Source: Candidatus Levyibacteriota bacterium
GTDB taxonomy: Bacteria > Patescibacteriota > Microgenomatia > Levybacterales > GWA1-39-11
Direction: 5' to 3'
Assembly (NCBI GenBank): GCA_039738415.1
Contig: JBCLLY010000007.1
Location: 1 to 36,515, forward strand
DNA: 36,515 nucleotides
Below the pieces are notes generated by a model, which was not told the origin of the DNA, did not search any database, and saw nothing but the letters and a program-made list of their open reading frames with translations. Numbering within the stretch: position 1 is the first letter of the stretch; each line of letters starts with the position of its first letter. Positions 2 to 22,155 of this stretch are shown here, piece after piece. The translations under genes were made by a program, and so were the position numbers.

Positions 2-502
2 ATCATTGGTTTTTTAGATGCGGGTATGGATATCGACCCAAATGGTATTGAAATGCTTATAAATCATATGGTTTGGTACGACGCAGATATTATTGTAGGC
101 AGCAAGCTACATCCCGTATCCAGAGTGGATTATCCTTTCTCAAGAAAAATATTATCTTGGGGATATAGGAGCTTTACCCACCTGCTTTTTGGATTTAGAA
201 TCCGCGATACTCAAGTAGGTCTGAAGTTTTTTAAAAGTAAAGTTGCCCAGGATGTTTTTTCCAGGTCTCTGGTTAAAAACTTTGCTTTTGATGTAGAAGT
301 TTTAGCTCTTGCTTATGCTCTGGGATACAAAAAAATATACGAGGCTCCTATTAAACTTAAATTTAAAAGTAATTCGTCTATAACAAATAGTAATTTCTGG
401 AAGGTAATTTTTCGTATGCTTGTGGATACTTTGGCAATTTATTACCGTTTGAAAATTATTCAATACTACAAAAAAGACAATAAAAAGAATTGGATTAATT
501 AA
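2..502 (+). CDS. GT2 glycosyltransferase (polyprenol-phosphate glycosyltransferase/DPM1-like), 5'-truncated by the window edge
   Basis: The frame is open from nt 2 (IIGFLDAGMD, a DxD-region motif). It carries IRDTQVGLKFF and FAFDVEVL motifs typical of DPM/DPG-synthase-like GT2. Confidence 0.85.
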   Translation: MIGFLDAGMDIDPNGIEMLINHMVWYDADIIVGSKLHPVSRVDYPFSRKILSWGYRSFTHLLFGFRIRDTQVGLKFFKSKVAQDVFSRSLVKNFAFDVEVLALAYALGYKKIYEAPIKLKFKSNSSITNSNFWKVIFRMLVDTLAIYYRLKIIQYYKKDNKKNWIN

Positions 503-539
503 TATTACAAATATTACAAATGCCACAAATAATACAAAT
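501..539 (+). repeat. 9-bp-period degenerate tandem array (left arm of the four-helix-bundle element)
   Basis: aatattaca aatattaca aatgccaca aataataca aat. Confidence 0.8.
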
Positions 540-545
540 TCCTCA

Positions 546-731
546 ATGAATAAAAAATACGATATTCACGATAGGATTTATAAGTTCATTGTTAGAGTAA
601 TTGTTCTGGTAAATAAGCTTATTTCCGCTACGAACCTGCCGAAAATAAAAGACGAAGCCCTAGATGTTCTCTCGGAAGGTAAGGAAATAGTGGCAATCGT
701 TAGTACAATAATAAACAAAACCCGCAGATGA
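546..731 (+). pseudogene. Four-helix-bundle (TIGR02436 / 23S rRNA-IVP-like) gene with an in-frame internal deletion
   Basis: The N-terminus KYDIHDRIYKFIVRVIVLVNKL and C-terminus LIS...EGKEIVAIVSTII resemble helices 1 and 4 of the family. The central QLLRSxTSIGAN...EA...F...KEAKET..W core is missing, leaving 61 aa against roughly twice that for typical members. Confidence 0.7.
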
Positions 732-751
732 ATATTATAAATGTTCTAAAT

Positions 752-798
752 ATTTAGATATTTGATATTGGTATGTATTTGTAGTATTGGTAGTATTT
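752..798 (-). repeat. 9-bp-period array, inverted relative to 501-539 (right arm)
   Basis: 777-797 atttgtagtattggtagtatt has the reverse complement aatactaccaatactacaaat, which matches 501-521 aatattacaaatattacaaat at 18/21. Confidence 0.75.
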
Positions 799-801
799 AA
801 T

Positions 802-1905
802 ATGAATATATTAATTCTTAATTGGAGGGATATAAAAAATCCTGCAAGTGGTGGTGCAGAGATTGTTACACTAGAGCATGCTAAAGCATGGATTAAGAAC
901 GGACATAACGTTACATGGTTTACCTCCAAATTTAACGGCGCAAAAGAAAAAGAAATAATTAATAATATTAATATTGTGCGACGCGGTAATTTTATAACTG
1001 TTTATCTGTATGCTCCGTTTTATTATTTATTTTCAAGAAATAAATTTGACTTGGTTATAGATGAGATTCACGGTTTACCGTTTTTTACGCCTCTTTATGT
1101 AAGAAAACCAAAAATAGCATTTATTCATGAAGTAGCGGATGAAATTTGGGACTATATGTTTCCTTTCCCTATAAATAAAATCGGTAAATTAATGGAACCA
1201 CTACTATTTCTACCATATAAAAATGTGAAATTTATTACGGTTTCGGATTCAACCAAGAAATCCTTAATAGAAATGGGAATAAAAGAAAAAAATATAACAA
1301 TTGTTTTTAATGGAACAAGAGGAAAATATCTCAATAGTTTACCTCGTAAAGAAAAAGTTCTGACTTTTATTTTTGTGAGTAGGGTTGTAAAAATGAAAGG
1401 CATAGAAGAAGTAATTAGAGCATTTTTTTATGTATTAAGAGAAATTAAGGACGCACGACTTTGGATAGTCGGGGACGGAGAGAAAAAATATATGGAAGAA
1501 CTTAAGGAAACAATGAGATCATATTCCATAACTCCTAAAGTCAATTTTTTTGGCAGAGTAACGGACGCGAAAAAACTGGAGCTTATGAAAAGAGCCCACA
1601 TACTGCTTCATGCTTCAGTAAGGGAGGGATGGGGTTTGGTTGTAATAGAAGCTGCAAGCCAGGGAACTCCATCTGTTGTTTATAACGTTGCGGGATTAAG
1701 AGACTCTGTAAAAAATGGGGGAACAGGAGTTGTTTTGTCTAAGAATACTCCCAATGAGATGTCAGAGCAAGCAATATGTCTTTATAAAGATAAGAAAAGA
1801 TATGAAAATTTTCAGAAAAACGGTTTGTCATGGGCAAAAAGTTTAACATGGGAAAAAGCAACAAAACAAAGTTTGGATTTATTAGAAAAAACAGCAAATG
1901 GATAA
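802..1905 (+). CDS. GT4 glycosyltransferase
   Basis: MNILILNWRDIKNPASGGAE N-terminus and EGWGLVVIEA motif. ATG 802 is preferred over the TTG at 787. Confidence 0.92.
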   Translation: MNILILNWRDIKNPASGGAEIVTLEHAKAWIKNGHNVTWFTSKFNGAKEKEIINNINIVRRGNFITVYLYAPFYYLFSRNKFDLVIDEIHGLPFFTPLYVRKPKIAFIHEVADEIWDYMFPFPINKIGKLMEPLLFLPYKNVKFITVSDSTKKSLIEMGIKEKNITIVFNGTRGKYLNSLPRKEKVLTFIFVSRVVKMKGIEEVIRAFFYVLREIKDARLWIVGDGEKKYMEELKETMRSYSITPKVNFFGRVTDAKKLELMKRAHILLHASVREGWGLVVIEAASQGTPSVVYNVAGLRDSVKNGGTGVVLSKNTPNEMSEQAICLYKDKKRYENFQKNGLSWAKSLTWEKATKQSLDLLEKTANG

Positions 1906-3214
1906 ATTACTTTTTAAATTTAGATTTGTAATACTTGTATTAATTCTTGTCTTAGGATTTGCTTTAAGAAATCATAATCTTAATACCTGGCCAAGATTAG
2001 GTGCTACTTTTGACGAATACGCCTGGACGTGGCAGGGAATGAATTTAATTCAAACTGGCGTTCCTTCCTCATGGTCCCCTCACGCTCAATACACGAATTT
2101 TGAACAGATAATATACCAGGAAGCAAATTTTAGAATAGTTACGCCCTTTTTAGAGCACCCGCCATTATTCGGATTAGTTGCTGGGAGTTTTGCGATTCTG
2201 AATGGAGTAGATACCATGCTAGATTTGCATATTCGTGATATAAGGCCCCTTGCTTTAATTTTAGGAACATTAAGTATTGGTTTAGTTTTTCTTTTAACGA
2301 GAGAGCTATATGACAAGAAAACCGCGCTTATTGCCTCATTTTTATATGCAGTAATTCCAACAGTGGTTGTGGGGTCTAGAATTGTCCAAAATGAAAATTT
2401 CTTTATTCCCATGTGGCTATTGTCACTTTATTTTGTTTCAAAATATATAAAAGAAAAAAGAACTATTTTTCGAAATATAGCAGCAATTATTTGTGGTCTT
2501 TTAGTGCTAGCAAAAATCCCCTGGATTGCGGCAGCAGGCTCAATCTTCTTAATTTTTCTTTATCTGAAAAAGTATAAAGATGCGGCACTTTTTATTTTTG
2601 CTCCCGTCTTGGGTTTACTGGTTTTCATAGGATACGGATTATATTATGATGCTGATTTATTTGTGAAGCTTTGGGGACTTCAGGTTGCCAGATACGATCT
2701 GACTTTTACCAGTTTTTTTGCATTATTTCAAAAGCCATATCTCGTAGATAGGTTTTATTTAGATGGCTGGATTTATTTCGGGTGGTTTGCATTCGTACTT
2801 GCCTTAACAAATTTTAAAAAACACTACATAATAATTTTTGCGCTGCTTTCTTATTTTGTGATATTTATTGCAGGAATTCCTGATGAGCCTGGGCATGGGT
2901 GGTATAGATATCCATTCTATCCATTTTTAATTATTTCAACTGCTTTATTTATAAAAGAATACTTTAATAAAAATTATATCCTGACATTTTTACTTCTTAT
3001 TTTTACTGGACTTTCTATGCTGGAATTGTCATGGACGCAGACTTTTGGATTCTCATTCTTGGTATTTAGAGGATTTATATTATTATCCGCTTTATCCCTT
3101 TTACCATTATTTTTTCCAAAAACGAAAAAAATATCAGGGTATATTAATTACTTTACATTAGCTATAATATTTATTCTAAATACCTGGTCAGTACTTTTAT
3201 ACAATGAGCAATAG
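1898..3214 (+). CDS. GT-C fold membrane glycosyltransferase (PMT/ArnT-like, GT39/GT83)
   Basis: Multi-TM protein with a DE acidic pair after TM1 (ATFDEYAW), an EHPPL motif and a late RYxYP motif. Confidence 0.85.
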   Translation: MDKLLFKFRFVILVLILVLGFALRNHNLNTWPRLGATFDEYAWTWQGMNLIQTGVPSSWSPHAQYTNFEQIIYQEANFRIVTPFLEHPPLFGLVAGSFAILNGVDTMLDLHIRDIRPLALILGTLSIGLVFLLTRELYDKKTALIASFLYAVIPTVVVGSRIVQNENFFIPMWLLSLYFVSKYIKEKRTIFRNIAAIICGLLVLAKIPWIAAAGSIFLIFLYLKKYKDAALFIFAPVLGLLVFIGYGLYYDADLFVKLWGLQVARYDLTFTSFFALFQKPYLVDRFYLDGWIYFGWFAFVLALTNFKKHYIIIFALLSYFVIFIAGIPDEPGHGWYRYPFYPFLIISTALFIKEYFNKNYILTFLLLIFTGLSMLELSWTQTFGFSFLVFRGFILLSALSLLPLFFPKTKKISGYINYFTLAIIFILNTWSVLLYNEQ

Positions 3215-3250: not shown

Positions 3251-4081
3251 ATGAGTAAAGTAATAATAAATCTGTGTCCAACGGGGATGGTTCCTACAAA
3301 AGAGATGAATTCTCATACTCCAATTACACCTGTTGAAATTATCAAAACAGCATTAGCTTGTGCAAGATTAGGTGCTTCTATTATCCATATCCATCCAAGA
3401 GATAAAGATGGAAAACCTACATGGAAAAGAGAAGTATTCGAACGAATAATCTACGGAATAAAAGAAAAAAATGATAAATTAATTATTAATGTTACAACCA
3501 GTGGTAGAAATTGGTCGGAATTTGAGAAGAGATCCGAATGTCTTGAAATAGACGGCCCCCTAAAACCCGATTTAGCTTCCTTAACTGTAGGCTCTTTAAA
3601 CTTTATGACTCAAGAGTCCGTTAGTTCTCCTACTATGATTGAAAAACTTGCTTTAAAGATGAAAGAGAAAGGAATTAAACCGGAACTTGAAGTATTTGAG
3701 CCCGGAATGATCCATAAGGCAAAATACCTAATTCGTAAGGGAATTATTGATTCAAATAGACCATATTTTAACATTCTATTAGGATCTTTGGGAACCTCAC
3801 CTCTTGAGCCGTCAGTTTTCTCAGCTTTTCATTCAATCTTACCGCAAGATTCTGTTTGGAGCGCTGCAGGCATTGGGCAATTTCAATTGGATGCAAACGT
3901 TATGGGTTTATCTTTTGGAGGACATGTTCGAGTAGGTCTTGAGGATAATCTATACTTTGATAGAGAGAAAAAGAAAGTGGCTTCAAATGAAAAATTGATT
4001 GAGAGAATTGCTTCAATAATTAGACTTATGAAACTCGAGGTTGCTACGCCCATAGAAGCACGTGAGATTCTTGATATTTAA
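3251..4081 (+). CDS. Beta-keto acid cleavage enzyme (BKACE/DUF849, 3-keto-5-aminohexanoate cleavage enzyme family)
   Basis: PITPxEI, GASIIHIHPRD (HxH metal motif), GIKPELEVFE and GGHVRVGLEDN. Confidence 0.93.
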   Translation: MSKVIINLCPTGMVPTKEMNSHTPITPVEIIKTALACARLGASIIHIHPRDKDGKPTWKREVFERIIYGIKEKNDKLIINVTTSGRNWSEFEKRSECLEIDGPLKPDLASLTVGSLNFMTQESVSSPTMIEKLALKMKEKGIKPELEVFEPGMIHKAKYLIRKGIIDSNRPYFNILLGSLGTSPLEPSVFSAFHSILPQDSVWSAAGIGQFQLDANVMGLSFGGHVRVGLEDNLYFDREKKKVASNEKLIERIASIIRLMKLEVATPIEAREILDI

Positions 4082-4084
4082 ATT

Positions 4085-4951
4085 ATGAATAGTAGTCCTC
4101 TCGTCTCAATTATAATACCGACGAGAAATTCCTCCTGTCATTTACCAACTTTACTAAAAAGCATTGCTGACCAAAATTTTACAAGAGTGGAAAGTTTAAT
4201 AGTTGATAATAAGTCCGAAGATAAAACTTTACAAATTGCAAAAAAATATAAACTTAAAATTATTTCTTGTGAAGGCATACCGCCTCAGGTTGCAAAACAA
4301 AGGAATATGGGAGCTTCCGAGTCTAAAGGCGATTACTTATTTTTCATGGACCATGACATGGAATTAAGTGATAATTTTTTAAATGATTTTTCAAAAGAAA
4401 TATTAAAAAATGACACAGACGCCTGGTATATCCATGAAAAAATTATTTCCAATAGTAAAATTTTGTCGATAGTTAGAAATTTTGAAGCAGGTTTTATAGA
4501 TGGTACAGTTATAAGTGCGGCAAGGATGATAAAGCGAGAAGTTTTTTTTCCTGTGGGAGGATTTGATGAAAGTTTATCTGGGGGACCATCTGACTGGGAT
4601 TTAAATAATAGATTAAAATTAAAAAATGCGAAGTTTGCTATCTTTAAAAGAATAATATATCATCATGAAGAAAATTTAAGTTTTAAAAACTATATATTTA
4701 AAAAAACTTCATATATTAAAGGTGGAGAAAAATATAAACGTAAATGGAAAGAAGCTGATAATAACGTATATAGAACTATTGTAAATAGACAATATGGAAC
4801 TTATTATAGATTAATTGGTGTATTTATTGAAAATGCTAAATGGAAAAAACTGCTTAAGAATTTAAATAAATATATTATTTTTCTAGCTATAAAATTATTT
4901 TTAGCATTAAATTACCAAATGAATTTGTATTATAAAAAATATGTTAAATAA
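4085..4951 (+). CDS. GT2 glycosyltransferase
   Basis: VSIIIPTRN, VDNKSEDKT, FMDHD (DxD) and GGFDE. Confidence 0.92.
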   Translation: MNSSPLVSIIIPTRNSSCHLPTLLKSIADQNFTRVESLIVDNKSEDKTLQIAKKYKLKIISCEGIPPQVAKQRNMGASESKGDYLFFMDHDMELSDNFLNDFSKEILKNDTDAWYIHEKIISNSKILSIVRNFEAGFIDGTVISAARMIKREVFFPVGGFDESLSGGPSDWDLNNRLKLKNAKFAIFKRIIYHHEENLSFKNYIFKKTSYIKGGEKYKRKWKEADNNVYRTIVNRQYGTYYRLIGVFIENAKWKKLLKNLNKYIIFLAIKLFLALNYQMNLYYKKYVK

Positions 4952-5594
4952 TATATATATTTTAGGTGCAGGCAGGATGGCCAGGGAAGTTTACCAAATC
5001 TATGTAATTCTTGGTAAAAAAAGCTTCGTTAAGGGTTTCTTAATAAATTCCGGATCTGATATGGAAAAAATTGATTCTAAGCCTGTTATTAATTACCCTA
5101 ATATAAAAAAAATAAGTAAAAAAGCATCTCTTGTAAATGGAATGGGTAGTATACTGAGAAAGACTTGGATTTTAGAACTTGAAGATAAAAGTTTTACGTT
5201 TGACAGTATTATTCACCCCACAGTAGTAATGGGAGAAGGTGTAAGCTGCGGAAAAGATTTAGTAATTTTTCCAAATAGCACAGTACTTTCTAACGTTGTT
5301 TTAGGAAATCACGTTTTTATTAGCGCAAATACTTACATTGGCCATGATTCAATTATTGGGAATTTCGTAACAGTTGCGCCAGGAGTTAACATTGGAGGTT
5401 ATTCAAAAATAGGAAACGGAACTTTTATTGGTATTGGTTCATCTATAATTCAAGGGATTAAAATTGGTTCAAACGTAGTAATAGGTGCTGGTTCAGTAGT
5501 TGTTGAAGATATTCCTGATGGGGTAGTAGCATATGGTAATCCTGCTAAGCCGGCTAAAAAAGTAACTGAAGAATTTTTAAAAAAATTATTGTAA
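4941..5594 (+). CDS. NeuD/PglD/VioB-family sugar acyltransferase (hexapeptide repeats)
   Basis: IYILGAGRMAREV N-domain, IGHD catalytic His, LbH repeats and a GNPAK terminus. Confidence 0.92.
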   Translation: MLNNIYILGAGRMAREVYQIYVILGKKSFVKGFLINSGSDMEKIDSKPVINYPNIKKISKKASLVNGMGSILRKTWILELEDKSFTFDSIIHPTVVMGEGVSCGKDLVIFPNSTVLSNVVLGNHVFISANTYIGHDSIIGNFVTVAPGVNIGGYSKIGNGTFIGIGSSIIQGIKIGSNVVIGAGSVVVEDIPDGVVAYGNPAKPAKKVTEEFLKKLL

Positions 5595-5597
5595 CTT

Positions 5598-6704
5598 ATG
5601 ATTAATGTTACCAAAACCGACCTGCCCAAAAGAGAGAAATTTGATAAATATTTAGATGAAATTTGGAAAACTCATTGGATAACAAATAATGGGAAATTTG
5701 TACAACTATTGGAAAAGAAATTAAAGAATTTTTTGAAAGTAAAAAATCTCACTCTTGTAAGCAATGGAACATCGGGACTTCAACTTGTGCTCAAAGCATT
5801 GGATCTTGAAGGAGAGATAATTACTACCCCTTTTACTTTTCCGGCAACTACAAACGCAATATTATGGGAAGGTCTTACGCCGATATTTGCAGATATAGAT
5901 ATCGAAACATTCAATATCGATCCTAAAGATGTTGAGCGAAAAATAAGCAATAAAACCTCTGCAATTCTTGCTGTACACGTGTATGGAAATCCTTGCGATG
6001 TAGAAAAACTAGAAGAAATTGCAAAAAAATATAATTTAAAACTAATTTTTGATGCGGCTCATGCATTTAATGTTGAATATAAGAATAAATCAATTTTAGA
6101 GTATGGAGACGCATCTATTTTAAGTTTTCATGCTACAAAGATTTTCCATACAATTGAGGGAGGAGCAATAGCAACTAGAAATAAAAATATTTTAGAAAAA
6201 TTAAAATTATTAAAGAATTTTGGCATAAAATCTGATGAAGAAGTTTTATTACCTGGAATTAATGCAAAAATGAATGAATTTCAAGCTGCAATGGGGTTAA
6301 GCAATATTCCGACCATTGAGAAAAATACAGTAAAAAGAATGAAAATATATCAAATTTATAAAACAAAACTAAAAAACTTAAAAAAAATTAAGTTCCAAAA
6401 ATTAACATCGTCCAAATACAATTGCTCATACATGCCTGTTGTCTTTGAAAATCAAAAAACTAGAGATAAAATTTATAGAAAACTAATAACCAATAACATC
6501 AAAGCTAGAAAATATTTTTACCCGTTAACCTCAAGTTTTGATTATGTTAAAAAAAACACTCCCGTCTATAAACTTAATAATGCTAAGCAAATATCCGATT
6601 CTGTTCTTTGTCTACCAATCTATCCCGAATTAAAGTTAGGTGAACTTAATAGTATTATAAAAATTGTAAATAATAGCATTTCATTTATTAAACAAGTTGA
6701 ATAA
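5598..6704 (+). CDS. DegT/DnrJ PLP-dependent NDP-sugar aminotransferase, VioA-like
   Basis: WITNNG, TTPFTFPAT, VHVYGNPC, DAAHAF, SFHATK (PLP Lys) and GINAKMNEFQAAMGL. Confidence 0.93.
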   Translation: MINVTKTDLPKREKFDKYLDEIWKTHWITNNGKFVQLLEKKLKNFLKVKNLTLVSNGTSGLQLVLKALDLEGEIITTPFTFPATTNAILWEGLTPIFADIDIETFNIDPKDVERKISNKTSAILAVHVYGNPCDVEKLEEIAKKYNLKLIFDAAHAFNVEYKNKSILEYGDASILSFHATKIFHTIEGGAIATRNKNILEKLKLLKNFGIKSDEEVLLPGINAKMNEFQAAMGLSNIPTIEKNTVKRMKIYQIYKTKLKNLKKIKFQKLTSSKYNCSYMPVVFENQKTRDKIYRKLITNNIKARKYFYPLTSSFDYVKKNTPVYKLNNAKQISDSVLCLPIYPELKLGELNSIIKIVNNSISFIKQVE

Positions 6705-6971
6705 TTGAATAACAAACTTTTAGATTACGTAGTGTGTCCAAATTGCAGATTTAGGAAATTTATCGATAGAAAGAGATATTTGGATTGTTCGTTATGCAAA
6801 TCTCAATATCCAATAAAAAACAATATTCTAATTTTAATTATGCCTAGAAAACAAAAAAGTATTTTAAATATTTGGAATACTGAGGGAGAGTATGCGAAGC
6901 TTCATTTAAAAAGAACATTTGCCGATAGCAAAGGTAATGCCACAACGGCCACGTACCTTAAAAGTGCTTAA
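6705..6971 (+). pseudogene. Trm112-like Zn-ribbon N-terminal fragment, probably of a truncated methyltransferase
   Basis: LLDYVVCPNC...CSLCKSQYPIKNNILIL. The ORF stops at 88 aa with no SAM-binding motif. Confidence 0.55.
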
Positions 6972-7053
6972 GTCTTTTGCAAAAAGCTTGACTTGGAAAA
7001 AAGCAACAAAGCAAAGCCTTGAATTAATAGAAAGCCTTGGGTTTTCAAAATAA
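6964..7053 (+). pseudogene. C-terminal remnant of a GT4 paralogous to 802-1905
   Basis: Translates VLKSFAKSLTWKKATKQSLELIESLGFSK*, compared with GLSWAKSLTWEKATKQSLDLLEK at the end of 802-1905. Confidence 0.8.
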
Positions 7054-7094
7054 CCCTGCTAATATTTCATTATGATAAAAAATAACCCTGCTAA
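7047..7094 (+). repeat. 16-bp perfect direct repeat
   Basis: aaaataaccctgctaa at 7047-7062 and 7079-7094. Confidence 0.85.
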
Positions 7095-7197
7095 ACTTAA
7101 AAATGAACGCAAGATGAGGGAAATAGTTTCCAGTAGTAATGGAAAGTATTGGCAATTAGTTTCCAACCGCAATATAATATTGTGTGAGAAATTTTAA
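7072..7197 (+). pseudogene. 41-aa mini-ORF, possible internally deleted gene remnant
   Basis: MIKNNPAKLKNERKMREIVSSSNGKYWQLVSNRNIILCEKF*. The ending resembles the last beta-strand of class I methyltransferases, which is weak evidence. Confidence 0.3.
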
Positions 7198-7233
7198 TTT
7201 TGTGGATGCAAAGAACTTTATCATACCTATTGG

Positions 7234-7284
7234 CTTTATGAACTTTTACTTTATAACTTTATAAACTTTATGAACTTTATAACT
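7234..7284 (+). repeat. ~9-bp-period degenerate array spanning the flippase start codon
   Basis: ctttatgaa ctttta ctttataa ctttataaa ctttatgaa ctttataa ct. Confidence 0.8.
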
Positions 7285-16524: not shown

Positions 16525-17778
16525 ATGGAAAATAATTTGGTAAAAAGGATAAATACATGTAGGATTTGTAAATCGACTGATTTGGTTGATGTCATTGATT
16601 TAACAGACCAGCCTATCCCAAATGGATTTCTTACGAAGGAAGATTTAAAACAAAAAGAAGAAAAATATCCCCTCGTGGCTGCGTTTTGCAAGAACTGTTC
16701 TCTCATGCAATTAAGGTATTTAGTAAACCCAAAAGTAATGTTTCAAAATTATCTTTACATCCCCTCGGCTTCAAAAACCCGCGTGAACCATTTTAAAGAA
16801 CTTGCGGAAGAAGTAAAAAAACTTACAAATTTTAACGAAAAGTCACTGATAATTGATATCGGAAGTAACGATGGGAGCCTGCTTATCGCTTTTAAAAATC
16901 TTGGAGCAAGAACACTTGGAATAGACCCTGCCCAAAATTTGGTAAAGGTTGCAGCGCTTTCCGGAATAGAAACTGTAAATGATTATTTTGAATCTAAAGT
17001 TGCTGCAAGGATTGGGAAAAAATACGGAAAAGCAAAAGCAATTTTGGCGACAAATGTAATAGCTCACATTAACAACCTGCATGAAGTTATAAAGGGCGGA
17101 GAGATTTTACTTGAAACTGATGGTGTATTTTTGATGCAATTTCCATATTTACTTGATTTAATAGAGAAAAATCTTTTTGATACTATTTATCACGAACATT
17201 TATCATACTTTTCAGTAAAATCCCTAATGGTTCTTGCCAAGAATTCGGATTTGGAAATATTTGATATAGAGAAAAGCGATTTGGACGGGGGGTCTCTCAA
17301 GGTCTATTGGAAGAAGAAAACAAATAAGAAAAGAAAAATTAACCAAGAAGGAATAGATAAAATCCTTAAGGAAGAGGAAGAGTTTGGATTATATAAAATT
17401 GAAACTTATGAAAAATTTGCTAAAAGAATTAAAAAATTAAAAGATTATGCTGTTAAAAAGTTAAAAGATTTAAAAAAGAGGAATAAAACAATTGTCGGAT
17501 ACGGGGCTGCTGCAAAGGCAAATGTACTACTCAATTATTTCGGAATAGATAAAAAGACAATAGACTATATAGTTGACTCAACTCCATTTAAGCAGGGAAA
17601 ATACACTCCGGGCAGTCACATCCCTATTTACTCTGAGGATAAAATATACGAAACAAATCCTGATTACGTAATTATATTTGCGTGGAATTTTGCAAAAGAA
17701 ATTATGGAGAAGAACAAAAGGTATAAAAATAATGGAGGAAAATTTATCTTCATCGAGCCAGAATTTAGAATAGAATAA
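16525..17778 (+). CDS. NDP-sugar C-methyltransferase family protein (NovU/TcaB9/EryBIII-like)
   Basis: Zn motif CRIC...CKNC, DIGSNDG, FDTIYHEHLSYFS, GYGAAAK and KQGKYTPGSHIPI. Confidence 0.9.
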   Translation: MENNLVKRINTCRICKSTDLVDVIDLTDQPIPNGFLTKEDLKQKEEKYPLVAAFCKNCSLMQLRYLVNPKVMFQNYLYIPSASKTRVNHFKELAEEVKKLTNFNEKSLIIDIGSNDGSLLIAFKNLGARTLGIDPAQNLVKVAALSGIETVNDYFESKVAARIGKKYGKAKAILATNVIAHINNLHEVIKGGEILLETDGVFLMQFPYLLDLIEKNLFDTIYHEHLSYFSVKSLMVLAKNSDLEIFDIEKSDLDGGSLKVYWKKKTNKKRKINQEGIDKILKEEEEFGLYKIETYEKFAKRIKKLKDYAVKKLKDLKKRNKTIVGYGAAAKANVLLNYFGIDKKTIDYIVDSTPFKQGKYTPGSHIPIYSEDKIYETNPDYVIIFAWNFAKEIMEKNKRYKNNGGKFIFIEPEFRIE

Positions 17779-17788
17779 GGAATTTGTG

Positions 17789-17818
17789 TTTGTTTGAAAT
17801 CCTTTCAATTGAGTATAA
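17789..17818 (+). promoter_or_regulatory. Possible sigma70 promoter upstream of the microsatellite and the TrpR-like gene
   Basis: Perfect TATAAT (~17813-17818) with TTGTTT/TTGAAA candidates upstream. The spacing is non-optimal. Confidence 0.35.
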
Positions 17819-17899
17819 TTAACCCAGTTAAATAATTTTAAATTCGTCTATTTTTTTATTTGTTAAGTTTGATACATAAGAAATTCAACCCGTAAGTCT

Positions 17900-17955
17900 A
17901 AACAAACAAACAAACAAACAAACAAACAAACAAACAAACAAACAAACAAACAAAC
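17900..17955. repeat. Perfect tetranucleotide microsatellite (AAAC)14
   Basis: Counted 56 bp of uninterrupted AAAC units in the intergenic region. Confidence 0.97.
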
Positions 17956-17994
17956 AACATGTTCTGTATTATGTGTATGGTTTATAAGAATACT

Positions 17995-18027
17995 TACTTT
18001 GCTGCTACGTAGCATAGTAGCAAAGTA
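17995..18027. promoter_or_regulatory. Palindromic site, copy 1 (operator or recombination-site candidate)
   Basis: tactttgctgcta-cgtagca-tagtagcaaagta has 13-bp inverted arms (1 mismatch) around a 7-bp spacer and contains the perfect palindrome tgctacgtagca. Confidence 0.7.
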
Positions 18028-18058
18028 AAAAATATATTGGCTATATTGACTAACCAAA

Positions 18059-18568
18059 ATGAGTGCAATTTCAAAAAAGGAAAAAAGGGAATTGATCCTG
18101 GATTTGATACATGGATTTGTCTTGTGTAAAACTATTGATGAGGTCATAATTTTTCTTGAGGACCTCATAACAAAAAAGGAACTTGAGACTTTATCTAAAA
18201 GGCTGCGGATTGCGAAACTTTTGATAAAAGGCTATGATTACCGTGAAATTCAGGAGATTGTACACGCAAGTCACTCAACTATCGCTAAAATTTCTTACTG
18301 GCTTTCCGAAAGAGGTGAGGGTTTTAGACAAATAGTAAGGACACTTCCTAAAGAAAGTGCTAATCTAATTGATCCATTGGAATATGATGCATGGGCAGAT
18401 TTAAGGAAAAGGTATCCCGGATACTTTCTCCCTGAACTTATTATGGAAGGAATAGTGAAGAATAGATCGGGAAAGAAGCAGAAGAGGATATCAAGTTCCC
18501 TTAAAAATCTGGAAATATCTTTAAATAGAAAAAAAGCAATAGGTAAAGAAGTTGATAAACAATCCTAA
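18059..18568 (+). CDS. TrpR-like (YerC/YecD) HTH transcriptional regulator with a C-terminal extension
   Basis: FLEDLITKKELETLSKRLRIAKLL..G.DYREIQ...ASHSTIAKIS..L...GEGF matches the Trp repressor fold. Confidence 0.88.
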   Translation: MSAISKKEKRELILDLIHGFVLCKTIDEVIIFLEDLITKKELETLSKRLRIAKLLIKGYDYREIQEIVHASHSTIAKISYWLSERGEGFRQIVRTLPKESANLIDPLEYDAWADLRKRYPGYFLPELIMEGIVKNRSGKKQKRISSSLKNLEISLNRKKAIGKEVDKQS

Positions 18569-18573
18569 GACTA

Positions 18574-18705
18574 CTTCAATTTACCTTACTCTTTACCCCG
18601 CATCCCAATGCCCCGACACGCTTCGCCAAGTCAGACTTGGCTTCGCAAAGCTACAGCGAGGCGAGCCGTAAGGTCGTGGGAGCTTCAATTTACCTTACTC
18701 TCTAC
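18574..18705. repeat. Direct repeat (19 bp perfect, 22/23 extended) bracketing a GC-rich insert
   Basis: cttcaatttaccttactct at 18574-18592 and 18683-18701. Confidence 0.9.
18592..18683. mobile_element. GC-rich MITE/REP-like element, copy A, with a nested 28-bp insertion
   Basis: Aligns to the reverse complement of 35497-35560 in blocks of 32/35, 9/9 and 13/15. The extra segment contains the hairpin gccaagtc-a-gacttggc. Confidence 0.75.
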
Positions 18706-18706
18706 T

Positions 18707-18736
18707 TTACTTTGCTGCTACGTAGCACAGTAGCAA
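18707..18736. promoter_or_regulatory. Palindromic site, copy 2
   Basis: ttactttgctgctacgtagcacagtagcaa is 29/30 identical to 17994-18023, in the same orientation, ~70 bp upstream of ATG 18805. Confidence 0.7.
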
Positions 18737-18804
18737 GCTGTTAGCAAATCGGTCTAGCAGAAATTGGAGTTTAATTTAAAGAGATGAAACTGTACAATTA
18801 AGAC

Positions 18805-19338
18805 ATGAAAATAGGAATTGATATCAGCCAGCTTGCCTATCCAAATATCGGGGTTGCGAATTATCTGTGGAATTTGGTTAAGGCGTTGGTTGAGGAAAAT
18901 AAGGATATCGAATTTGTATTGTTTTTCAGCTCTCTCAGAAGGAGTATCCAGTATCCAGTATCCAGTATTCAGTATAAGAATGTAACTATAAGAAGATTCA
19001 GGATTCCGCCGACAATTTTAGATTTATTGTGGAATAGGCTTCATATAGCACCAATTGAGTGGTTTGTGGGAGACGTTGATGTATTCATAACCTCAGACTG
19101 GACAGAGCCCCCAGTAAGACAAGCTAAGAAAGCGACCATTATCTATGATCTAATCGTCTATAAACACCCTGAAGAAACGGACAAAAAAATTGTTCAAACA
19201 CAAAAAAGAAAATTAAATTGGGTTAAGAAGGAAGCAGATTCTATTATTTGTATTTCTCAGTCAACTAAAAACGATGTAATAGAAATATTAGGCATTGATG
19301 ATAAAAAAGTAAGTGTTATTTATCCAGGGCTATTATGA
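18805..19338 (+). CDS. GT4 N-terminal domain only (truncated or stand-alone)
   Basis: MKIGIDIS...GVANY...TIIYDL...IICISQSTKND...VIYPG and then a stop. There is no EGFG-containing C-domain. Confidence 0.75.
   Translation: MKIGIDISQLAYPNIGVANYLWNLVKALVEENKDIEFVLFFSSLRRSIQYPVSSIQYKNVTIRRFRIPPTILDLLWNRLHIAPIEWFVGDVDVFITSDWTEPPVRQAKKATIIYDLIVYKHPEETDKKIVQTQKRKLNWVKKEADSIICISQSTKNDVIEILGIDDKKVSVIYPGLL
18943..18977 (+). repeat. In-frame heptamer array (AGTATCC)3 AGTATTC AGTATAA
   Basis: Encodes SIQYPVSSIQYK. Confidence 0.9.
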
Positions 19339-20579: not shown

Positions 20580-21134
20580 ATGTTAAATAAAATGATTAAT
20601 AGAATAAATACGGTTTTATTAGAATTTGAGAATCTGATTTTAAAAATTGTCGGAGTGGTTCCTTCCCACTTCTTCCGGAGGTTTTTTTATAGAGTATCCG
20701 GGATGAAGATTGGGGCAGGCTCGACTATTCATACAGGGGCAGTGTTTTATGATGCAGGCAATATCACAATTGGAAAAGATACAATAATTGGAGAAAATGC
20801 TGTTTTTGACGGACGGGAAAAAATAAACATCGGAAATCACGTCGATTTTGCATCGGAGGTTATGATTTATAATTCCCAGCATGATATACAAAGCGATGAC
20901 TTTGGAGTAATATCTGAGCCGGTTGTTATAAAGGACTATGTATTTATAGGTCCGAGGGCGATTATTTTGCCGGGTGTTACAATCGGACGTGGTGCGGTTG
21001 TTGCTGCAGGTGCGGTAGTTACAAGAAATGTAGGAGATTTTGAAATCGTAGGTGGAGTACCCGCAAAAGTAATTGGAGAGCGCAAATTAAAAGATCCTAA
21101 GTACGAACTTGGCAGGGCTGCTTGGTTTAGGTGA
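20580..21134 (+). CDS. Hexapeptide-repeat O-acyltransferase (maltose/galactoside acetyltransferase-like)
   Basis: LbH repeats, NSQHD, GAVVAAGAVVT and GGVPAKVI. The TTG start at 20535 only adds repeat-derived residues. Confidence 0.9.
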   Translation: MLNKMINRINTVLLEFENLILKIVGVVPSHFFRRFFYRVSGMKIGAGSTIHTGAVFYDAGNITIGKDTIIGENAVFDGREKINIGNHVDFASEVMIYNSQHDIQSDDFGVISEPVVIKDYVFIGPRAIILPGVTIGRGAVVAAGAVVTRNVGDFEIVGGVPAKVIGERKLKDPKYELGRAAWFR

Positions 21135-21293
21135 GTATTGAGTATTCAGTATTGAGTATTCAGTATAGAAAACATTAAGAGATTAACGTATTAACAACAA
21201 ATTAAAATATTAACAAGTTAACAAATTTTAAATTATAGTAAATTAGTACAGGGGGGTTAATCTTTTAGTTTTTTAATTTTTTAATTTTTTAAT
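21133..21293. repeat. Intergenic composite: 5 heptamers, then inverted 8-bp-period arrays
   Basis: gagtatt gagtatt cagtatt gagtatt cagtata (21133-21167); ATTAAC-type 8-mers (~21172-21225); inverted gttaatct tttagttt tttaattt tttaattt tttaat (21256-21293). Confidence 0.8.
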
Positions 21294-21297
21294 AAAT

Positions 21298-22155
21298 ATG
21301 ATTTCACTTATAATTCTCACCTACAACTCCTCAGAATATATAGACGAACTTCTTAGTGGAATTATCAAAAAATTTTCTACTGAATTAGAAAACAAAGATC
21401 TAGAAATAATTGTTGCTGATAATTTGTCTCTGGATGATACTTTGAAAAAAGTAGAAAAGTTTAGGGATAAAATAAAAATTGTACAAAATGGCGGTAACTT
21501 CGGTTATGCAAAGGGAAATAATTTAGCTACTAAAAAAGCCAGCGGGGAGGTTTTAATTTTTATGAATCCTGACGCAAAGTTTATCGGTGGAGATATTTTC
21601 AGTTTGGTTTCCAAATTTGAGAACGAAAAGATCGGGATAGTTGGAGGAAAAATTATGGCGTTAAGTGGAAAACCCGAGCTTTCCTGTGGAAAATTTTATA
21701 AAGTATTTAATACTTTTTTACTCGCACTTGGTCTGGAGGAAAAATTTGGAGTTCGTTTTTCGCCAAAAAAGGAGAGAAGCGTCGATTTTGTGAGCGGAGC
21801 ATTTCTTGCAATACGTCGCAGTTTATTTGAAAAATTAAATGGGTTTGATGAGAACTATTTTATGTACGTTGAGGATTCGGATTTGTGCTATAGGACAAAA
21901 AAGGCGGGATTTATCACTTTGTTTTCTCCTCTTGCAACAATTCAACACGTAGGGCAGGGAAGTTCAAATAGAAATTTTGCGGTTATAAATATTTACAAAG
22001 GGTTAATGTATTTTAATAGAAAAAACGGGAATTATTTTTCCTATAATCTGGTAAGACTTATACTTATAAGTAAAGCCAAGTTGCTTGTAAAGATGGGGAA
22101 AATATTGAATAATAAATACTTAACCGACACCTATAGTTCGGTTGGAAATTTATGA
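21298..22155 (+). CDS. GT2 glycosyltransferase (WbbL rhamnosyltransferase-like)
   Basis: NFGYAKGNN, FMNPD, VSGAFL and GFDENYFMYVEDSDLC. Confidence 0.92.
   Translation: MISLIILTYNSSEYIDELLSGIIKKFSTELENKDLEIIVADNLSLDDTLKKVEKFRDKIKIVQNGGNFGYAKGNNLATKKASGEVLIFMNPDAKFIGGDIFSLVSKFENEKIGIVGGKIMALSGKPELSCGKFYKVFNTFLLALGLEEKFGVRFSPKKERSVDFVSGAFLAIRRSLFEKLNGFDENYFMYVEDSDLCYRTKKAGFITLFSPLATIQHVGQGSSNRNFAVINIYKGLMYFNRKNGNYFSYNLVRLILISKAKLLVKMGKILNNKYLTDTYSSVGNL

What the first reader, a model, noticed from the sequence alone, without database searches (positions are those of the whole stretch)
501..801. Four-helix-bundle gene relic enclosed by inverted periodic arms that fill the space from one stop codon to the next start codon
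Seen: a 9-bp-period array begins at the GT2 stop (500-502), and its inverted counterpart ends 4 nt before the GT4 ATG (802). In RNA, 501-521 can pair with 777-797 using 18 Watson-Crick pairs, 2 G-U pairs and 1 mismatch. The enclosed gene lacks its conserved core but keeps its start, frame and stop, with a junction near 618-620 (VNKL|ISAT). Established: TIGR02436-type genes were first found in 23S rRNA intervening sequences, which are excised stem-loops, and the fold is shared with the DGR accessory protein Avd. Inference: this is an IVS-like module in mRNA that loops itself out of a polycistronic transcript, or a small mobile cassette with repeat ends. Two of three mismatches being G-U weakly favours selection at the RNA level.
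Basis: partly seen in the sequence, partly recalled or inferred. Interest (0 to 1): 0.72.

Follow-up and report, generated by a model that had tools for sequence, protein, structure and literature searches.

The report
Decaying IVS-type hairpin gene cassette
A small inserted gene cassette that has lost the middle 168 bases of its gene sits between two sugar-transfer genes, and matching gene-less copies of its repeat arms sit in the same genome's ribosomal RNA gene, so it is likely a half-way stage in the decay of a selfish hairpin element that moves between messenger-RNA junctions and rRNA.

Summary
Observation confirmed. Window 501-521 pairs with 777-797 exactly as described (18 WC, 2 G-U, 1 A-G); arm duplex beats 4991 of 5000 shuffles. 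The 61-codon ORF is a TIGR02436/PF05635 gene with an in-frame 168-bp deletion: a relative carries the intact gene, same arms, at the same junction, and a second assembly shares the deletion. The junction is empty in 21 of 29 relatives' loci, so this is an insertion. The same 9-nt arms bracket this subfamily at 13 different gene junctions and occur gene-less in this genome at rpsQ-rplN and inside 23S rRNA at the classic IVS helix, there between a covarying twin-hairpin cap. Best reading: a dead intermediate in the series intact cassette, deleted gene, gene-less hairpin. A Coxiella IVS with repeats and an ORF deletion is in print; this scan has reported the cassette class many times on other DNA and twice in this genome. 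New here: the matched decay series and the rRNA cap.

The parts
2..502 (+). 3' part of a GT2-type glycosyltransferase gene; stop TAA 500-502 overlaps the first arm unit
   Evidence: weak NCBIfam hits to polyprenyl-phosphate sugar synthases; syntenic homologs 52-80% identical
501..545 (+). 5' arm: five 9-nt units ending at the relic's ATG
   Evidence: 501-521 is 20/21 identical to the 23S insert at C9:6358-6378
520..549 (+). 9-codon out-of-frame mini-ORF inside the arm whose TGA overlaps the relic's ATG; significance unknown
   Evidence: read from the sequence; an ATG inside the arm is in frame with the gene in 25 of 36 subfamily loci and opens a short other-frame ORF in 9 of 36
546..731 (+). 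four-helix-bundle (TIGR02436/PF05635) gene relic, 61 codons: helix 1 joined to the last 4 residues of helix 3 and helix 4
611..624 (.). deletion junction (620|621) inside a perfect 14-bp palindrome; 168 bp missing relative to the intact gene
   Evidence: self reverse-complement match; gap in alignment A2
732..797 (+). 3' arm: inverted, less regular copies of the unit; best-paired part 777-797
   Evidence: matches the 23S insert (E 3e-7) and the rpsQ-rplN hairpin (E 1e-5) of this genome
797..803 (+). 7-nt sequence repeated at 499-505; possible target duplication, not distinguishable from chance in AT-rich DNA
   Evidence: read from the sequence; the intact relative L084 has a 6-nt repeat at the same ends
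802..1905 (+). GT4 glycosyltransferase gene; ATG 4 nt after the arm

Best explanation
This is an inserted four-helix-bundle gene cassette of the rRNA intervening-sequence (IVS) kind whose gene has lost 168 bases and is likely dead, while its two repeat arms remain and are predicted to pair in the transcript. Shown: the ancestral junction has overlapping or adjacent stop and start codons; a cassette of arm, gene and inverted arm was inserted there; a later in-frame deletion removed helix 2 and most of helix 3; copies with the same arms and no gene exist in mRNA junctions and in rRNA. Inferred: the long stem is what lets such inserts be tolerated, because it folds the insert out of whatever RNA it interrupts (bringing the GT2 stop back next to the GT4 start, or extending an rRNA helix) and, as for known IVS, probably offers RNase III a substrate; once inserted the gene is dispensable in cis, is lost by deletion between short repeats, and a 60-115 nt hairpin is left. 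The deletion most likely arose by slippage between two in-phase K-L codon pairs. How new copies are made is not shown; intact family members elsewhere in the genome would supply the protein.
For: Intact gene with the same arms at the same junction in L084, 168-bp gap. Same deletion, one residue different, in a second assembly, P0034. Junction gap -4 to +5 nt in 21 of 29 relatives' loci, including both same-genus genomes; 30-59 nt in 3; not adjacent in 4; filled in 1 (L022) by a different cassette only 29% identical over 79 residues with other arms. Same 9-nt arms around this subfamily upstream of 13 different genes. Each cassette pairs with itself, not with others: mean score 15.2 against 8.4 across 39 diverse loci, but 15.8 against 15.9 within the subfamily. 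Flank score 15 or more in 6 of 9 intact genes of this genome and the relic (16), against 10 of 237 control genes; 59 of 87 dereplicated loci beat all 40 shuffles. Decay series: at the dcd-thyA junction L074, L079, L101, L107 hold the gene and L263 holds a 112-nt gene-less hairpin; L260 keeps a 5-codon remnant; the 23S insert of this genome keeps the start-codon context of the subfamily. G042 has one intact gene of the subfamily and 7 gene-less hairpins. 23S insert folds with z -5.77, 0 of 200; that helix is short in 18 of 20 relatives with usable anchors. L192 has an intact gene with 7-nt arms inside 16S rRNA. RNase III is present here and in 39 of 40 family genomes. Copy number 0-14 per genome. 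Precedent: PMC4990558.
Against: No RNA data for this organism, so folding and cleavage are unshown. No strand asymmetry of mismatches (71 G-U, 56 A-C; first version 60 and 54); only a weak 5 to 0 at one position. No compensatory change: position 9 of the stem is mismatched in 37 of 55 elements. Whole-cassette folds are not better than shuffles (z -1.55; z -0.06 for L084), and mismatches every 9 bp make a poor uninterrupted helix. Three of 9 intact genes here score no better than 12 and 28 of 87 loci do not beat all shuffles. RNase III is nearly universal in the family, so its presence discriminates nothing. The DNA of P0001 was not available, so the microhomology is inferred from protein; L084 has a different codon pair at the right breakpoint.
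Confidence: 0.58

Rival explanations
1. Same history of insertion and decay, but the arms act in DNA: they are the ends recognised by a mobilising or recombining protein (an autonomous element with MITE-like derivatives), and RNA pairing is a by-product.
For: G-U and A-C mismatches are equally common; the C-U and A-G mismatches at position 9 are the same pair seen from opposite strands; gene-less copies lie between convergent genes (L218, L228); one intact plus 7 gene-less copies in G042; possible 6-7 nt target repeat.
Against: The cargo protein is a four-helix pentamer-type fold with no nuclease domain. All placements seen are at gene boundaries, rRNA helix tips, an rRNA leader or an intron loop, where an RNA hairpin is tolerated; this may be survival bias rather than targeting. 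The rRNA copies carry a cap whose paired positions change together in 26 of 26 inserts.
Confidence: 0.25
2. The arms have been adopted by the host as a processing or translation-tuning site between GT2 and GT4 and are kept by selection; the gene was shed because only the stem matters.
For: Arms are retained in the window and L084 and, judged by the peptide read through them, in the genome of P0034; the stem abuts the GT4 start; gene-less copies sit in ribosomal-protein operons.
Against: The junction is empty in 21 of 29 loci and both same-genus genomes have no family member; their rpsQ-rplN junction lacks this hairpin; the deletion is recent, so retention of arms needs no selection.
Confidence: 0.1
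3. The 61-residue product is a working two-helix mini-protein, for example a poison subunit of the pentamer.
For: Start, frame and stop are intact in two assemblies.
Against: The family's conserved motif (GxxRxxxSxxxNxxE, PMC3936711) lies in deleted helix 2; no other short homolog among 2 candidates of 33-107 residues; an in-frame result is expected from in-phase K-L repeats.
Confidence: 0.05
4. The deletion is an assembly error or the arms are chance AT-rich repeats.
Against: A second assembly with a different residue has the same junction; shuffles, control genes and dozens of relatives show the arms.
Confidence: 0.02

Closest known systems
ORF-bearing intervening sequence (IVS) of 23S rRNA helix 45, Coxiella burnetii (Warrier et al. 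2016, PMC4990558; abstract and 12 passages seen)
   Same: S23p/PF05635 ORF in the loop of a terminal inverted-repeat stem, tandem short repeats just before the start codon, similar size (428-444 nt against 430-490 nt for intact cassettes here), and one strain with a 176-bp deletion in the ORF.
   Different: Here the element lies between protein-coding genes, the unit is 9 nt, both arms are arrays, and it occupies many unrelated sites. RNase III excision is shown there and untested here.
Insertions in CPR rRNA genes (bioRxiv 10.1101/2024.02.27.582315; 6 passages seen; supplements not seen)
   Same: Reports 23S_rRNA_IVP ORFs in 16S and 23S insertions and many short ORF-less insertions at known IVS sites, supposed to be RNase III-type.
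   Different: The word 'repeat' does not occur in its main text; the passages seen do not describe periodic arms, a shared cap, or a link to copies between protein genes.
Free-standing 23S_rRNA_IVP genes in cas loci (PMC3936711; 2 passages seen)
   Same: Family members wedged tightly between protein-coding genes outside rRNA.
   Different: Flanking arms, relics and gene-less copies are not mentioned in the passages seen.
Intergenic heptamer arrays of Beggiatoaceae, Cyanobacteria and Bacteroidetes (PMC4679880; abstract and 12 passages seen)
   Same: Short-period arrays ending a few bases before start codons and overlapping stop codons.
   Different: Described as direct repeats with a regulatory role; no mention of four-helix-bundle or IVS genes (0 occurrences).
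DGR accessory protein Avd (bioRxiv 10.1101/2023.10.23.563531; abstract and 12 passages seen)
   Same: Pentameric barrel similar to S23 proteins; all five protomers contact an RNA stem-loop and support a reverse transcriptase.
   Different: No reverse transcriptase found in this genome (86% complete); no template or variable repeat was looked for; the fold link to Avd was taken from the paper, not tested.
REPIN/RAYT and MITE systems (recalled; PMC3116915 seen only as a search listing)
   Same: One gene-bearing element plus short gene-less hairpin copies in intergenic space.
   Different: The cargo is not a transposase; the unit differs between subfamilies; copies also enter rRNA.

Membership tests
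TIGR02436 / PF05635 four-helix-bundle protein | HMM score above the family cut-off | tested here: not met
   The 61-aa product has no hit; its nearest full-length relatives P0001 and P0004 pass (69.7 and 74.2 bits, cut-off 24). It is a fragment of a member, not a member.
TIGR02436 / PF05635 four-helix-bundle protein | homology to both ends of the family | tested here: met
   Residues 1-25 and 82-117 of P0001, 5 differences in 61; DNA alignment to L084.
TIGR02436 / PF05635 four-helix-bundle protein | four long helices and the conserved R-S-N-E motif | tested here: not met
   Model of P0001 has helices 7-23, 29-54, 58-85, 88-116 (pLDDT 92); the relic lacks 26-81, which holds the motif. The relic itself was not folded.
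rRNA intervening sequence (IVS) | lies within an rRNA gene | tested here: not met
   The window element is between GT2 and GT4. Its gene-less sister at C9:6341-6465 does lie in 23S rRNA.
rRNA intervening sequence (IVS) | complementary ends forming a long stem around an optional S23p ORF | tested here: met
   (predicted pairing only)
rRNA intervening sequence (IVS) | excised by RNase III without religation | not testable with these tools
   RNase III gene present; no RNA reads of this organism.
rRNA intervening sequence (IVS) | sporadic presence among relatives | tested here: met
MITE / non-autonomous transposon family | terminal inverted repeats shared by gene-bearing and gene-less copies | tested here: met
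   36 gene-bearing and 19 gene-less elements share the terminal words (elements were picked by those words).
MITE / non-autonomous transposon family | target-site duplication of fixed length | tested here: inconclusive
   7-nt and 6-nt AT-only repeats at the window and L084 ends; no close empty allele.
MITE / non-autonomous transposon family | cognate transposase encoded by the full element | tested here: not met
   The only ORF is the four-helix-bundle gene.
Diversity-generating retroelement | reverse transcriptase gene with Avd, template and variable repeats | tested here: not met
   No PF00078 match at E 0.01 in this 86% complete genome; none among 33 window proteins scanned.

The most novel reading that the evidence does not exclude
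TIGR02436 cassettes are a class of selfish RNA-level mobile elements. The pentamer binds the repeated units of its own arms (five 9-nt units here, one per subunit), a reverse transcriptase supplied in trans copies the excised stem-loop as Avd does in DGRs, and the element and its gene-less derivatives home to places where a hairpin is harmless: coupled stop-start junctions and rRNA helix tips, the latter with a dedicated twin-hairpin cap. This would give one origin for rRNA intervening sequences, the unexplained 7-9 nt intergenic arrays and this protein family.
Probability: 0.2. Interest if true: 0.85.

Novelty: new variant of a known kind. Interest (0 to 1): 0.5.

Why it matters
The relic alone is an ordinary broken gene. 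It matters as the middle term of a matched series (empty site, intact cassette, deleted gene, gene-less hairpin) and because the same arm sequence sits both at an mRNA junction and at an IVS site of 23S rRNA in one genome. That ties together three long-unexplained things, rRNA intervening sequences, short-period intergenic arrays and the PF05635 family, and gives defined substrates for a direct test: one protein subfamily, one 9-nt arm, one capped rRNA hairpin. In 8 paper searches on this theme and one on the family name I found no paper describing the arms at mRNA junctions or the cap; most subscription papers and the supplements of the preprints were not searchable, so this is not proof of absence from print. 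The scan itself has noted the cassette class repeatedly.

Tried and rejected
HMM scans of the relic alone: nothing. Folding the whole module: not significant. G-U versus A-C test: no asymmetry; one search used imperfect anchors (58 of 83 loci; 60 against 54) and was redone as (116 loci given, 6 skipped, 87 after dereplication). The cross-pairing figures use the set. Covariation in the arm: one search was off by one base and was redone as (80 loci examined after leaving out L099, L100 and L217, 14 without both terminal words, 55 kept after dereplication); positions 1-4, 6-8 and 10 are fixed by the search words, and the loci are related, so the Fisher p of 0.009 for excess mismatch is not a clean probability. 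Boundary distances (47 loci given, 5 without the motif, 36 after dereplication) come from a word search that misses some outer units, so 16, 15 and 7 of 36 are lower bounds. Promoter/terminator scan: nothing above chance in the module. Sequencing runs: best share 0.37, none is this organism; laying them on the window and on the 23S gene says nothing about cleavage. RNase III distribution: near-universal, uninformative. Short homologs of the relic: none besides itself. A genome-wide census of periodic hairpins was too strict, finding 9 and missing known ones including the window's. Target duplication: unresolved. PMC8700078 (2 passages) only lists such genes.

Full report
Setting. The window is contig C7 of a 797-kb, 86% complete genome. 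Record titles of related loci name Microgenomates, Levybacteria and Patescibacteria, so a candidate-phyla organism is likely (inference). The window is a surface-glycan gene cluster.

Observation. The 5' array is five 9-nt units from 501 to 545, ending at the ORF's ATG. The spacer duplex is stronger than 4991 of 5000 shuffles, but the whole 311-nt fold is not exceptional (z -1.55), and the arms can pair in several registers 9 nt apart. In longer contexts the predicted pairing probability of the outer stem stays near 0.7-0.9.

The ORF. No family model hits the 61 residues. A search of longer proteins returned 32 hits, all PF05635. P0001 matches residues 1-25 and 82-117 with 5 differences and passes TIGR02436; the alignment matches PDB 2RLD, a five-chain entry. 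The model of P0001 shows that helix 2 and most of helix 3 are missing, and with them the family motif given in PMC3936711. A metagenome locus, L084, has the intact gene at the same GT2-GT4 junction with near-identical arms; the DNA alignment has one 168-bp gap at 620|621. A second assembly on a 141-kb contig encodes the same junction with one other residue (P0034), so the deletion is real and inherited. P0001 has K-L at both breakpoints and the junction is a perfect 14-bp palindrome; slippage between in-phase repeats is inferred and would explain the kept frame without selection.

It is an insertion. Of 29 relatives' GT4 loci fetched (43 of 61 genomes had a match), 21 have GT2 within -4 to +5 nt, often with overlapping stop and start, 3 have 30-59 nt, 4 are not adjacent, and 1 (L022) holds another four-helix-bundle cassette with a distant protein and different arms. 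Both same-genus genomes are empty here and have no family member; copy number in the family runs from 0 to 14. This genome has 9 intact members, each with its own repeat unit; 6 of 9 score 15 or more against 10 of 237 control genes, several of which are neighbours of other arms. Arms travel with the protein subfamily: self-pairing exceeds cross-pairing across subfamilies (15.2 against 8.4) but not within this one, whose cassettes stand before 13 different genes, among them mreB, tmk, thyA, dnaX, cysS and pyrD.

Gene-less sisters. The window's arms have two clear matches in the genome: a 74-nt hairpin starting at the rpsQ stop, absent in that form from 5 relatives checked, and a 90-nt hairpin inside the 23S rRNA gene, at the helix I number 45 from its flanking motif (numbering recalled). 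That helix is short in 18 of 20 relatives with usable anchors, 9 of 30 genes lacking anchors. The insert folds with z -5.77 and keeps the start-codon context of the subfamily. At the dcd-thyA junction four relatives carry the gene and one a 112-nt gene-less hairpin; another hairpin keeps a 5-codon remnant. G042 has one intact gene and 7 gene-less copies, one between convergent genes. The window's element is therefore read as the middle of a decay series; the direction, gene-bearing to gene-less, rests on the remnant start and stop codons.

The rRNA cap. This genome's 23S gene has three periodic inserts with three different units, each between the same two short palindromes. The left palindrome occurs in 33 of 301 genomes of the class, the reversed control in 3. 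Of 30 loci fetched, 27 (one is this genome) are in rRNA operons, at several helices of 23S and 16S and one leader, followed by periodic arms; 3 are chance hits elsewhere. In 26 of 26 distinct capped inserts one G/C position changes together in all four strands, 17 one way and 9 the other (relatives are not independent). A DNA contig of run X1 shows this 9-nt capped hairpin at a different 23S helix than in this genome (joints, loose end; one contig). L192 has an intact gene with 7-nt arms, without the cap, in 16S. The mRNA-junction copies seen have no cap.

Tests that went against the RNA-selection argument. G-U and A-C mismatches are not different (71 and 56, p 0.21). The variable ninth position is mismatched more often than paired (37 of 55), the opposite of compensation; it may reflect alternative registers or avoidance of a perfect palindrome. 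Tight stop-to-start filling is common but not general. No RNA data exist for this organism.

Mechanism. Shown: insertion, shared arms, deletion, gene-less copies in mRNA and rRNA. Inferred: the stem folds the insert out of the host RNA and so makes it nearly neutral, probably with RNase III able to cut it as shown for the Coxiella IVS (PMC4990558); RNase III is present but also in nearly all relatives. Unknown: how copies move. No reverse transcriptase was found here. The DNA-end rival stays open.

Comparison. The closest described element is the Coxiella helix-45 IVS, which already shows a stem, short tandem repeats before the start codon and a strain with a 176-bp ORF deletion. CPR rRNA inserts with and without this ORF are catalogued, and free-standing genes are known. 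The window's element fails IVS membership by position and family membership by its deletion, but is built like an IVS. Earlier notes of this scan describe the cassette class in at least 9 other genomes' windows and twice in this genome, and one notes the rRNA link; these are unchecked AI notes and are not counted as support. A search of those notes for the cap returned nothing.

Verdict. Real feature, new variant of a known kind, interest 0.5: ordinary as a relic, useful as a matched intermediate and as the lead to the capped rRNA inserts.

Noticed in passing
L040:1796-1930, 2231-2382, 3039-3170 (G000:C9, 23S rRNA gene): Three gene-less periodic hairpin inserts with different units share a twin-palindrome cap; the cap marks such inserts at many 16S and 23S helices across the class and covaries in 26 of 26 cases. 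Deserves its own study.
   Followed up: partly
L040:about 3920-4612 and about 5170-5650: Two long insertions in 23S that look like group I introns; the first has an ORF with a LAGLIDADG-like motif (by eye, recalled), the second holds a periodic hairpin at 5290-5385.
   Followed up: no
L040:6030-6170: Periodic-arm hairpin in the 23S-5S spacer.
   Followed up: no
G000:C3:56256-56329: Gene-less 9-nt-arm hairpin starting at the rpsQ stop, 24 nt before rplN; same-genus genomes have only a short spacer there.
   Followed up: yes
L266 (G000:C3:19458-20027): The ribosomal protein gene at C3:19533-19955 (rpsL by its sequence, recalled) is bracketed by two near-identical 7-nt-period hairpins.
   Followed up: no
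L265 (G000:C11:14417-14906): Long 7-nt inverted arrays 430-490 nt apart with no four-helix-bundle gene between; the right array lies inside the 5' end of an ORF with a pilin-like motif.
   Followed up: partly
window 21134-21298: Gene-less periodic arrays of two unit types; hairpin 21196-21290 ending just before the next ATG.
   Followed up: no
window 17778-18805: An (AAAC)n run, then a Trp-repressor-like gene (18059-18568) flanked on both sides by a near-identical palindromic stretch of about 29 nt (seen by eye).
   Followed up: no
window 6704-7270: 566-nt gap that by eye holds a fragment resembling the 3' end of the GT4 gene and ends in a lone 7-nt array right before the ATG at 7270.
   Followed up: no
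window 18805-19338: A 177-codon ORF with only the N-terminal GT4 domain, overlapping the start of a complete GT4 gene.
   Followed up: no
G000:C11:17231 and 20627: Two stand-alone copies of the left cap palindrome within a longer repeated sequence, without arms.
   Followed up: no
L121, L083, L240: Other broken four-helix-bundle genes among the fetched loci (early stop or partial match), suggesting decay is frequent.
   Followed up: no
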